Source of the DNA: Octopus vulgaris
Taxonomy: Eukaryota
DNA length: 64,000 bases
Assembly (NCBI GenBank): GCA_951406725.2
Contig: OX597832.1
Coordinates: 47,492,001 to 47,556,000 of the forward strand
Direction: 5' to 3'
The position numbers and the translations under genes are program-made. Each line of letters starts with the position of its first letter. The first letter of the stretch is position 1. Positions 9,495 through 60,975 of this stretch are shown here, in pieces. The notes beneath the pieces were generated by a model, which was not told the DNA's origin, made no database searches, and saw nothing but the letters and a program-made list of their open reading frames with translations.

Positions 9495-10109
9495 ACATAT
9501 ATATGTGTATATATATATATATACATATATATATACATGTATATATATATATATATATACGACGGGCTTCTTTCAGTTTCCGTCTACCAAATCGACTCAC
9601 AAGGCTCTGGTCAACCCGAGGCTATAGCAGAGGACACGTGCCGAAGGCGCCATGCAGTGGGACTGAATCTAGAGCAAGCTACTTACCACGCAGCCAGTCC
9701 TTACATGCATAAAATGTAATCCATACTTGACAGAGTTTCTTCTTTGATTATTACATAATTATTATTCATTGTGAATAACTGGCAGCCAGATACTTCAATT
9801 GTGAACATGCTAGAAAATCTGTTCTTGGAATTGCCAATTTCATTTCCGTAAATGTGAAGACGTGCCAATATTTCTGATGCCAACACATGGATGTCTTTTG
9901 CCACTGTATTGCATGTAATATTAGTTGTCAAACAGCCATGTCTTCAGAGTGGTTGTGGGTATATTGAAGCCTAGTTAGTGTTTCGCTTTTTCTTGAAACA
10001 AAACAATGATTTTTATCCTCTGCTGGAAAACGTTGAATAAAATGCAGGATCTGATGTCTCTTAACAATATAATGGATTCGATTGCTAAACTCTCTTGATT
10101 CGCTTACGC

Positions 10110-10445
10110 CATAGGTTCTCAAAGTGGGTGCTACCCCCCCCCCCCCCGGTGGGCGTTGAGACGGTCCAGGTGGGCACTAATGCCTAAGGTGACGGGGAGC
10201 GGTAGAGAAAAAGGAGGCGTTGGGAGAAAGGCAGTGGATTGGGGGAAGCTATGAATTCATTACAATATTGTTATAGTATTGTATACAAATTATATAATAT
10301 TATATTAAATATCAAATGATTCATAGTATATATATAAATTAGTAAAGTGCAAAATATCTATAGATAAAAATAGGGGTGAGGCGCTGAGGGTATTATGTGG
10401 CCATCGGGTGGAGGCAGAGGTCCAAAAAGTTTCAGAACACCTCTG
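10110..10445. mobile_element. hAT-type MITE
   Basis: Imperfect TIRs cataggttctcaaag / tttcagaacacctctg; 8-bp TSD gcttacgc / gcttatgc (7/8 match). Confidence 0.75.
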
Positions 10446-10529
10446 GCTTATGCTATATATCTGGCAAATAAACCATGTTTCTTACGGTCAATGGTCGCAT
10501 GATTAAGGCAGGATATAAAGACACCGAAA

Positions 10530-10598
<69 letters not shown>

Positions 10599-10601
10599 TA
10601 T

Positions 10602-10685
10602 AGGCATGGCTGCTCTCGACTATTGGGATCGCCTTAAAGCCTTGAAACTTTACTCCTCCAGCGTCGCCGTGAGCGGTACATCATT

Positions 10686-10746
<61 letters not shown>

Positions 10747-11220
10747 TAAACGATGGCTGCTGACTATTGGGATCGCCTTAAATTTATCCCTCCAGCGTCG
10801 CCAACATCATTTGCCCATGTGGAAAATATCGACCTAAACATTAGCTTCAAGGTTCATCCGAGACTTGGACCACGGGCTATACGTCCCCTGCCAAATCCAA
10901 ATTCAAGATCACAACATACATGTACACTGCAACATAATTTCTTTTCCTCAACAGGCCCTGCCCTATTTAACATTGTCCCGAGGGAGATCAAAGAGGAAAA
11001 GGATCCCATCAACTTCAAACAGAGTCTGGATAGATTCCTTCAAAGAATACCAGACAAGCCACCCCCATCACTACTTGAACAAAACTGATACAACTCACCC
11101 AACAAGAACTCACTACTTGAACAAAACTTGACTTAAACAGGATTCGAATAATCCTATCAGGTGGTGCTATTAAGTTAGACATGGCCTGGACCAATCTCTG
11201 GTCGAAACATATCTAAGTTT
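10602..11220 (+). mobile_element. CR1/L2-group LINE 3' fragment, decayed
   Basis: DYWDRLKALKLYS..QRRRERY and GPALFNIVP..FKQSLDRFL motifs. Interrupted by (TA)n with a partial duplication. Confidence 0.85.
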
Positions 11221-20202: not shown

Positions 20203-20281
<79 letters not shown>

Positions 20282-20460
20282 GTGCATACTCGTATTTCCT
20301 CTTATTCCTTTCTGTCGAAGAGCGTAGGCTCGAAACGTAAATGACTTTTCCATTTTTTTCCCGAGCGTCAAACTAATACACTTGCTTCCTCTTCCCACAC
20401 ATGTCTTCGTCTTTGTAGACAGTTACTGTCTATACCTCGTTCTTGAGATTTATTATTGCT

Positions 20461-20690
20461 TATTTACACTTTTTCAAGATCAGCGACGAAAAGTCACTGG
20501 AAAAAGGATATATGTATTTGCATTGGGACCCTTCCATCGAAAACCGGTGATTGTCGTGCGCTGATGACGGGTCAATACCCAGAAACTGCAGTCTGTGCGT
20601 ATCACTTAGGTTGACGAGGGAAGGATGACCTCCCTTTGCAAATACAGATAGGACACAGAAAATGTGTCAACAGCCAGCTGGAGAAGGACA
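20461..20690 (+). repeat. Hammerhead-bearing dispersed repeat (Penelope pLTR-like), copy 1
   Basis: Collinear with 60641-60870 and contains the 20547 hammerhead. Confidence 0.7.
20547..20605 (+). ncRNA. Type I hammerhead ribozyme motif
   Basis: gtgat..cgtgcg-CTGATGA-c gggt caat accc a-GAAA-ctgcag-TC-tgtgcg..atcac; predicted cleavage after GUC (20593). Confidence 0.85.
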
Positions 20691-33510: not shown

Positions 33511-33741
33511 ATCGTGACGAATATTTGCCATTTGAATATGGCTAACCCATAAGGGTGGATGCTACTGTAGTTTGTAGCCCCAGGAAGACACCTCCTCCCG
33601 CTGGCTATAGACACACTATCTGTGTCCTCTCAGTATTGTGTCTATAGCCAGCTGGAGGAGATATCTTCCTGGGGCTACAAACTACAGTAGCATCCACCCT
33701 TATGGGTTAGCCATATTCAAATGGCAAATATTCGTCACGAT
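33511..33741. repeat. Long inverted duplication (hairpin)
   Basis: ~95-bp near-perfect arms and a short loop, embedded in (TA)n. Confidence 0.92.
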
Positions 33742-33785
33742 GTGTTACCGCTACTGTTTATAACTCGCTCTTTGATTTATCATTG

Positions 33786-33870
<85 letters not shown>

Positions 33871-33874
33871 CGAC

Positions 33875-34620
33875 ATGAGTGAAGATACCTCTTTCCAAGT
33901 GCACATTACCAGGATGGCGACAAAATGCAGACGACTGGCTGGATGGATCCTAAGAACATTCAGAACCAGAGATAAAGAAACCATGATGGTCCTCTGGCGG
34001 ACATTCGTCCTCAGCCGACTGGATTACTGCTCACAGCTATGGTCACCCACCAGTGTGAAATTAACAGCAGACCTTGAAGCAATCCAGAGAAGATACACAA
34101 AGAAGATCGTCTCTTTGCAACAGCTCAGCTACTGGGAAAGGTTGAAACAGCTAAGACTCTACTCCCTGGAGAGAAAACGGAAGAGGTATGCAGTAATATA
34201 TGTCTGGAAGATCCTGGAAGGAACTGTGCCAAATTTTTGCATTTTAAGCTACACCAATGCTAGAACGGAACGACACTGCATAGTGCCAAAGATCCCAGCA
34301 ATGCCATCACGCTTCAGGACCAGCTTCTGCAACAGCCTGGGTTTCAAGGGCCCACAGCTTTTTAATATTCTCCCAAAGAGTCTGAGGAACTTGCACAAAA
34401 TAGATGTAGCGGTTTTTAAATCAAAGCTGGACATCTTCCTGTCGAGAGTCCCAGATGAACCTACCTCACGGCAAGAGGTGCAAATGAGAGTAGCTATATC
34501 AAACTCCATTCTTCACCAAGTGCCCCATTATTAGAGGAGGTTCTTCGTAATAACAGTGTAGCACAAAACGGCGGTGCATCAGCATGGCCGCAGCTCTGAG
34601 CTGAAACAAGAAGAAAAAAA
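33875..34620 (+). mobile_element. CR1/L2-group LINE 3' fragment (RT C-terminus ORF 33875-34534, 3' UTR and tail)
   Basis: 219-aa ORF with ILRTF..VLSRLDYCSQLWSP..LEAIQRR..YWERLKQLRLYSLE..GPQLFNILP..FKSKLD motifs; 5'-truncated at (TA)n. Confidence 0.92.
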
Positions 34621-60640: not shown

Positions 60641-60938
60641 TGTTTACACTTTTTCGGGATCAGTGACTTTTCGTAACTGGTAAAAGGATATATGTATTTG
60701 CATTGGGACCCCTTCGCATCGAAGACCGGTGATTGTCGTGCGCTGACGACGGATAAATACTCAGAAACCCGGGTCCGTGCGTATCACGTCAGGTCGACGA
60801 TGGGAAGGATGGCTTCCCTTTGCAAATACAGATAGGGCAAAGAAAGTATGCCAATAGCCAGCTGGAGATGTTCTCCTGGGGCTACAAGCTACAGTAGCAT
60901 CCACCCTTAGTGGTTACCCACATTTAAGTGGCAAATAT
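60641..60938 (+). repeat. Hammerhead-bearing dispersed repeat (Penelope pLTR-like), copy 2
   Basis: Matches 20461-20690; its 3' part matches the arms of the 33511-33741 palindrome. Confidence 0.7.
60729..60787 (+). ncRNA. Type I hammerhead ribozyme motif (paralog of 20547)
   Basis: cgtgcg-CTGACGA-..-GAAA-cccggg-TC-cgtgcg. The stem III palindrome differs from the paralog; stem II is weakened. Confidence 0.78.
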
Positions 60939-60940
60939 AC

Positions 60941-60975
<35 letters not shown>

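What the first reader, a model, noticed from the sequence alone, without database searches (positions are those of the whole stretch)
20547..20605. Paralogous hammerheads with covarying stem III palindromes (CTGCAG vs CCCGGG)
Seen: the copies at 20547 and 60729 are collinear over ~230 bp. The inner four bases of stem III differ (tgca vs ccgg), yet both stay perfectly self-complementary, and the catalytic core differs only at the variable N7 position. Inference: selection acted on the palindrome, which supports a functional, probably dimeric, ribozyme in the source elements.
Basis: partly seen in the sequence, partly recalled or inferred. Interest (0 to 1): 0.7.

Follow-up and report, generated by a model that had tools for sequence, protein, structure and literature searches.

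The report
Retrozyme hammerhead with evolving palindrome
These are two broken copies of a 353-base repeat with about two thousand hammerhead-motif matches in this animal genome; its short palindrome stays self-pairing as lineages change its letters, so two ribozyme units likely pair to cut the RNA into circles that a Penelope-type retrotransposon likely spreads, a known kind of element.

Summary
Both are sub-unit fragments of a 353-bp non-coding repeat with a type I hammerhead motif, a non-LTR retrozyme; young relatives form tandem arrays of up to 5 units in (TA)n. Across lineages the four loop bases take nine states (TGCA, TATA, TCGA, TCGG, CCGG, CTGG, ACGT, CGCG, CATG), all self-pairing, two through G·U wobbles; neutral simulation gave this in 0 of about 10,000 runs. 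The inner pair cannot form in a hairpin, so selection acted on pairing between two units, and a natural dimer folds as a double hammerhead. Insertions carry Penelope marks (two 3' ends about 43 nt apart, 5' inversions), shared with a young intact Penelope-like element. Cleavage and circles were not testable. Palindromic, dimer-forming helix III is already published, and the scan noted a like element on other DNA (e1-9531557). New member of a known kind.

The parts
20420..20686 (+). Retrozyme copy 1 (subfamily A, TGCA loop), 0.76 of a 353-bp unit, truncated at both ends
   Evidence: 93.3% to a natural unit (L010); unit length
20547..20605 (+). Type I hammerhead motif of copy 1: bulged stem I 20547-20560 with 20594-20605, core 20561-20567, C10.1·A11.1 at 20568/20581, stem II 20569-20580, GAAA 20582-20585
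   Evidence: sequence; pairs counted on alignment A1
20585..20592 (+). Palindromic helix III octamer ACTGCAGT; predicted cut after C 20593
   Evidence: self-duplex -11.1 kcal/mol against +2.9 as 2-bp hairpin; cut site inferred from the hammerhead consensus
60641..60946 (+). Retrozyme copy 2 (subfamily B, CCGG loop), about 0.87 unit, ending at the family's usual first 3' end next to (CA)n
   Evidence: 86.2% to L010 unit; 3'-end clusters
60729..60787 (+). Type I hammerhead motif of copy 2, stem II weakened
   Evidence: monomer fold +2.8 kcal/mol
60767..60774 (+). Palindromic helix III octamer ACCCGGGT; predicted cut after C 60775
   Evidence: self-duplex -14.9 kcal/mol
33514..33785 (.). Third fragment of the same family, without hammerhead: minus-strand 33514-33637 joined to plus-strand 33637-33785 (5' inversion), both ends at the family's two 3' end sites
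20280..20418 (+). Fragment of another high-copy repeat with a minimal-hammerhead-like motif, directly upstream of copy 1; likely the end of a Penelope-like element
   Evidence: 2851 candidates; 76-80% to 2 of 40 GIY-YIG-bearing loci (L336, L338)

Best explanation
The two sites are decayed fragments of a 353-bp non-coding repeat whose hammerhead motif keeps a self-pairing 8-base helix III across lineages, so two adjacent units in a multimeric transcript likely pair through it and cut, releasing a monomer that would be closed to a circle and copied back into microsatellites by a Penelope-like element's enzymes. Steps: (1) tandem arrays exist (shown); (2) read-through transcription (inferred); (3) the octamers of neighbouring units form an 8-bp helix III giving a double hammerhead (covariation shown, fold predicted); (4) two cuts release a 353-nt monomer that folds tightly (predicted); (5) host ligase closes it (from published retrozymes); (6) target-primed reverse transcription starts at monomer position ~174 or ~217 and runs through the cut site for up to 5 units, with 5' truncation and inversion (end pattern shown, enzyme inferred). 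Selection acts only on source elements; inserted copies decay neutrally.
For: Exact-core patterns with a free loop: 1066, 623 and 497 matches, controls 0, 1, 0 (some belong to a second family). Loop-masked tree of 233 copies gives subfamilies with one loop state each. In 23 hand-picked representatives helix III is 100% paired: outer pair UA 11, CG 7, UG 4, AU 1; inner pair CG 14, GC 5, AU 3, UG 1; stem I 97.8% paired with double changes at 5 of 6 pairs. Simulation on the 21-representative tree: nine or more states all pairable in 0 of 10,021-11,067 runs per root. Loop-blind set: 136 of 170 copies pairable, 106 perfect palindromes; 7 of 8 clusters have a pairable majority. Decay inside subfamilies: 14 of 30 variants pairable, 0 new palindromes. 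MFE of a natural dimer is the double hammerhead; inter-unit pairing 0.27-0.95 in 23 of 26 natural tandem pairs, intra-unit 0.00 in all 26. Monomer z -7.67. 105 of 113 segments end at two sites; young arrays lie in (TA)n with inverted 5' parts; a young 781-aa RT plus GIY-YIG element shows the same (TA)n target, two 3' ends 38 nt apart and an inverted part.
Against: No cleavage or circle data. The window's lineages have C10.1·A11.1 (17 of 23 representatives unpaired there) and miss Rfam RF00163; young G-C copies score 32.2 bits against a cut-off of 34. No copy of subfamilies A or B among 60 loci reaches two units. L054 and L178, with different flanks, share the non-pairing loop CCGA and three other changes, so at least one source with a broken palindrome seems to have moved. 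Copies do not pile up at the predicted cut site. No sequence is shared between the unit and the Penelope-like element examined. ViennaRNA ignores tertiary contacts and under-predicts a short helix III in a monomer. Representatives were chosen by me; CGCG and CATG rest on single copies picked after seeing the loop.
Confidence: 0.8

Rival explanations
1. The ribozyme cuts mainly as a monomer (2-bp helix III plus tetraloop, helped by loop 1-loop 2 contacts); the palindrome is kept for an optional dimer or another RNA-RNA pairing step, such as during reverse transcription.
For: PMC7229834 and PMC7761336 report efficient monomer cleavage for invertebrate retrozyme hammerheads with a 2-bp helix III. 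The bulged stem I and loop 2 resemble the usual tertiary motif (recalled, not tested).
Against: The 2-bp hairpin is unfavourable (+1.9 to +2.9 kcal/mol) against -7 to -15 for the duplex; the axolotl hammerhead with a 2-bp helix III and a 10.1-11.1 mismatch cleaved much better as a dimer.
Confidence: 0.12
2. The palindromes are regenerated by template switching or conversion during copying, not by selection on RNA pairing.
For: A 5-base hairpin loop elsewhere in the unit is inverted between subfamilies (GAAAA 29 of 29 in A, TTTTC 29 of 31 in B), so template switching occurs; TCGA to TGCA has no wobble intermediate.
Against: Wobble states TCGG and CTGG are whole subfamilies, whereas their strand mirrors CCGA and CCAG arise as often in decay (TCGG 6, CCGA 6 in B) yet form no cluster of three or more loci; a DNA-level process would be strand-symmetric. 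No new perfect palindrome among 30 within-subfamily variants.
Confidence: 0.05
3. The motif is a non-catalytic relic in the C·A lineages: pairing was selected in older ancestors or for RNA structure, and the elements move as uncut read-through RNA.
For: C10.1·A11.1 mismatch; no pile-up of 5' ends at the cut site; 8 of 9 Xenopus dimers tested in 10.64898/2026.07.22.740005 did not cleave.
Against: Compensatory changes in stems I, II and III occurred inside C·A lineages; core letters are invariant over lineages that differ widely elsewhere (partly by pattern choice); natural U10.1·U11.1 variants are known.
Confidence: 0.03

Closest known systems
Metazoan non-LTR retrozymes (Cervera and de la Pena 2020, PMC7229834), especially mussel 350-390 bp and axolotl 353-bp HHR_Amex2 repeats
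   Same: Unit size (353 bp), GC 42-43%, type I hammerhead, tandem arrays, strong self-pairing, short helix III with palindromic loop, mismatch at the base of helix II in some lineages
   Different: Mismatch is C·A (also U·U, A-U, G-C by lineage); most copies are dispersed fragments of about one unit; here the loop's history is resolved on a subfamily tree; circles and cleavage not shown
Hammerheads of Penelope-like elements with palindromic helix III (PMC4209133; Lunse et al. 2017, title only)
   Same: Palindromic loop 3 read as a dimer device; microsatellite target, tandem and inverted insertions, terminal extension at one end (PMC8557442)
   Different: No ORF; canonical-size stems I and II rather than a minimal motif; no sequence shared with the Penelope-like element examined
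Repeat-type dimeric hammerheads of Aedes, newt and ASBVd (PMC3088659 Fig. S8 legend)
   Same: Palindromic stem III and loop III across many sequences
   Different: That work lists palindromes across ribozymes; the legend seen gives no lineage-resolved compensatory path
Vertebrate non-LTR retrozymes as non-autonomous Penelope derivatives (bioRxiv 10.64898/2026.07.22.740005)
   Same: Monomer, dimer and multimer copies; co-occurrence with Penelope-like elements
   Different: They find pLTR homology in Xenopus; here only the insertion signature links the two

Membership tests
Type I hammerhead ribozyme | Core C3 U4 G5 A6 N7 G8 A9, G12 A13 A14, A15.1-U16.1, H17 | tested here: met
   (U3 in 3 of 23 representatives, not the window copies)
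Type I hammerhead ribozyme | Stems I, II, III supported by covariation | tested here: met
   10 of 15 pairs with changes on both sides; 0 of 500 shuffles reach the score
Type I hammerhead ribozyme | Paired 10.1-11.1 (usual, with known natural exceptions) | tested here: not met
   C·A in both window copies; G-C or A-U in 6 of 23 representatives. Filed as a variant for this reason
Rfam RF00163 Hammerhead_1 | Gathering score 34 bits | tested here: not met
   window none; young copies 32.2 bits, E 8.5e-05. Not filed as a member
Type I hammerhead ribozyme | Site-specific self-cleavage | not testable with these tools
   genomic proxy negative or neutral
Non-LTR retrozyme | Head-to-tail repeats of 150-450 bp, each with a type I hammerhead | tested here: met
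   351-360 bp spacing in 26 natural pairs, up to 5.1 units; met by the family, the window copies are sub-unit fragments
Non-LTR retrozyme | Non-coding, no LTR structure, GC under 45-50%, dispersed high copy | tested here: met
   GC 0.425-0.428; 3843 and 2624 candidates; no non-repetitive ORF of 150 aa over the copies
Non-LTR retrozyme | Highly self-paired monomer | tested here: met
   z -7.67, z -3.87
Non-LTR retrozyme | Expressed as linear and circular monomer RNA | not testable with these tools
   only contigs of runs not on record as RNA were available
Non-LTR retrozyme | Target-site duplications where present | tested here: inconclusive
   (TA)n flanks hide them
Non-autonomous partner of a Penelope-like element | Microsatellite target, 5' inversion, terminal extension at one end | tested here: met
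   same marks in the 781-aa element; features from PMC8557442
Non-autonomous partner of a Penelope-like element | Sequence shared with a pLTR | tested here: inconclusive
   none with 40 GIY-YIG loci, a small part of 6136 candidates

The most novel reading that the evidence does not exclude
The helix III palindrome works as a lineage self-recognition code, like a retroviral dimer-initiation palindrome: co-existing young lineages carry TCGA, TCGG, TATA, CTGG and ACGT, most cross-duplexes are weak (TGCA with CCGG -1.7 against -11.1 and -14.9 kcal/mol), and lineages move between codes along G·U-wobble bridges while twice regaining G10.1-C11.1. This genome would then hold a natural fossil series of a ribozyme dimer interface evolving under competition between RNA circles. 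Against: TCGA recurs in at least four lineages, and pairing in cis needs no code.
Probability: 0.08. Interest if true: 0.7.

Novelty: new member of a known kind. Interest (0 to 1): 0.33.

Why it matters
It gives lineage-resolved comparative support for the dimer model of animal hammerheads (published from folds and a few assays), in an invertebrate-type 2-bp helix III usually read as monomer-active. It also offers a ready test pair for the open question of which enzyme moves animal retrozymes: young, near-identical 353-bp arrays and a young intact Penelope-like ORF with the same insertion marks in one genome.

Tried and rejected
Rfam at gathering level: nothing in the window; nothing relevant at E up to 10 over copy 1. 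Isolated 66-nt folds do not give a hammerhead for the window copies (z about 0). Expression: no RNA holder listed; contigs laid cover much of the unit in runs labelled as up to four organisms but show no ends, strand or level. Starts at the cut site: 4 loci among 28 matches begin there, 2 of 19 for the young pattern, against 4 of 11 at a control position 10 nt downstream: no enrichment. Autonomous partner by sequence: none in 40 GIY-YIG loci. A second old repeat with a C·A hammerhead and ACGT-type loop (L096 and relatives) has no similarity to the unit outside the motif and no ORF found; left out of the trees. The TCAT cluster is one local inverted array with no match to the unit. Watson-Crick covariation between loop 2 and the stem I bulge: looked for by eye, not seen. 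Sequence look-up in earlier findings: nothing. Lunse et al. 2017 not held; supplement of PMC7229834 unreadable. Heterodimer of the two window copies rejected: 5 of 8 pairs, 40 kb apart.

Full report
Observation. The two sites align over 230 bp at 84.8%. Both read stem I - CUGANGA - stem II - GAAA - octamer - C17 - stem I, a type I hammerhead layout; the octamers are ACTGCAGT (20585-20592) and ACCCGGGT (60767-60774), and the core differs only at N7. Two copies are weak evidence: 9 of 81 four-mers that differ from TGCA everywhere are palindromes. Rfam finds nothing in the window.

What the element is. Each copy has thousands of candidates (3843 and 2624). Copies are circular permutations of a 353-bp unit, GC 0.43, folding far better than shuffles (z -7.67 for a young unit; -3.87 for a subfamily A unit). 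Patterns with a free loop gave 1066 matches with C10.1/A11.1, 623 with G10.1/C11.1 and 497 with A or T at 10.1; reversed controls 0, 1, 0; a minority belong to a second, unrelated old repeat. The G-C class is mostly one young subfamily (1.1% from its majority) in head-to-tail arrays; 13 of 23 loci mapped exceed two units, up to 5.1 (8 of the 23 were picked as arrays). The window's subfamilies A and B are older (4.2% and 4.5%), and none of 60 loci reaches two units. Copy 1 covers 0.76 and copy 2 about 0.87 of a unit; a third, hammerhead-less, inverted fragment lies at 33514-33785.

The palindrome. A tree of 233 copies with the four loop columns masked (37 of 270 left out as too short, too diverged or of another family) resolves subfamilies with one main loop state each: A TGCA in 39 of 44, B CCGG in 36 of 58, young TCGA in 25 of 28, TATA in 8 of 8 (the last two groups were picked partly by loop label), plus TCGG, further TCGA and a second CCGG lineage. 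Diverged lineages add CTGG (3 loci), ACGT (4 loci), and single copies with CGCG, CGTG and CATG. In 23 hand-picked representatives all four helix III pairs are 100% paired, the outer loop pair as UA, CG, UG, AU and the inner as CG, GC, AU, UG. The inner pair joins adjacent bases, so it can only form between two units (sequence logic). Neutral simulation on the tree of 21 representatives gave about 7.4 states at the element's mean rate (9 observed), all tips pairable in 0.14-0.33% of runs, and nine or more states all pairable in 0 of 10,021 to 11,067 runs per root. In a loop-blind set, 136 of 170 copies are pairable and 7 of 8 clusters of three or more loci have a pairable majority; the exception is one local array outside the family. 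After insertion the loop decays neutrally: 14 of 30 variants pairable, none a new palindrome, TCGG and CCGA 6 each in B. Only the G·U-compatible member of such mirror pairs founds subfamilies, which points to RNA-level selection. One exception: L054 and L178 share CCGA and three other changes with unrelated flanks.

Folding. The 2-bp hairpin form costs +1.9 to +2.9 kcal/mol; self-duplexes give -7.2 to -14.9. The minimum-energy fold of a natural dimer is the double hammerhead with the 8-bp inter-unit helix. In 26 natural tandem pairs inter-unit pairing is 0.27-0.95 in 23 and 0.00 in three with a broken palindrome; intra-unit helix III is 0.00 in all. The program ignores tertiary contacts, so monomer activity is not excluded. 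The two window octamers are incompatible (5 of 8 pairs, -1.7).

How it moves. 105 of 113 mapped segments end at unit positions 165-183 or 212-226, while 5' ends are scattered and often inverted; copies run through the cut site. Young arrays sit in (TA)n, and inverted ones often use one end site at each side. PMC8557442 (passages) lists tandem and inverted structure, microsatellite targets and a 30-40 bp extension at one end as Penelope-like marks. The genome holds a young element with a 781-aa frame (9 of 10 fetched; one 771 aa) matching RVT_1 (28.9 bits, cut-off 29.6) and GIY-YIG (30.6, cut-off 22.6); 8 of 10 copies end at one site before (TA)n, 2 carry a 38-nt extension, one has an inverted 5' part. 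It shares no sequence with the unit, so the partnership is inferred from marks only. Copies starting at the cut site are not enriched, as expected for a circular or multimeric template and neutral on cleavage.

Comparison. Metazoan non-LTR retrozymes are described in PMC7229834 (parts 1-4 of 6 read, supplement unreadable), including an axolotl motif with 2-bp helix III and U·U at the base of helix II that cleaves better as a dimer. Palindromic loop 3 as a dimer device is in PMC4209133 (parts 1-2 of 4), PMC3088659 (passages and Fig. S8 legend) and PMC6765202 (passages); PMC7761336 (passages) says most invertebrate motifs cleave as monomers. The Penelope link is argued in bioRxiv 10.64898/2026.07.22.740005 (parts 1-3 of 5). 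Lunse et al. 2017 was seen only as a reference title. Searches showed no paper on this family or on a lineage-resolved loop history; unseen supplements (PMC7229834, Lunse 2017) may hold either. Earlier scan notes report a like 352-base element in another genome.

Verdict. Shown: motif, unit, arrays, covariation, end pattern. Predicted: dimer fold. Inferred: cleavage, circles, Penelope mobilisation. The window copies are likely inactive fossils. New member of a known kind; interest 0.33.

Noticed in passing
window 20280-20418: High-copy repeat with a minimal-hammerhead-like motif (about 20312-20340) abutting copy 1; 76-80% similar to sequence at two GIY-YIG loci, so likely a Penelope-like end.
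   Followed up: partly
L361-L370 (G000:C16:20834500-20841500 and others): Young Penelope-like family with many intact 781-aa frames, (TA)n target, and a hammerhead-like motif with U3/A8 core and ACAUGU palindrome near its 3' end.
   Followed up: partly
tree; L230, L226, L268, L301: Position 10.1-11.1 goes from C·A in old lineages to U·U, A-U and G-C in young ones; G-C appears in two separate branches, two young G-C lineages also carry U3.
   Followed up: partly
window 20480-20500 and 60660-60680: A hairpin loop is exactly inverted between subfamilies A (GAAAA) and B (TTTTC), a sign of template switching.
   Followed up: yes
L096, L110, L128, L144, L181-L210: A second, old and unrelated repeat (1556 candidates) also has a C·A-closed hammerhead motif with an ACGT-type palindromic loop; no ORF or unit length found.
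   Followed up: partly
window 53712 (+) and 54543 (-): Two more loose hammerhead-core pattern matches without clear stems.
   Followed up: no
window 33776-34534 (+): 252-aa stop-free frame that reads like the C-terminal end of a LINE reverse-transcriptase ORF (impression, not searched), next to the third retrozyme fragment.
   Followed up: no
L088 1413-2238: Three tandem copies with a shortened 249-bp period, an internally deleted unit amplified as an array.
   Followed up: no
loose ends in runs X1, X3, X14: Contigs with further hammerhead 5' halves joined to the same downstream sequence, suggesting more lineages than sampled.
   Followed up: partly
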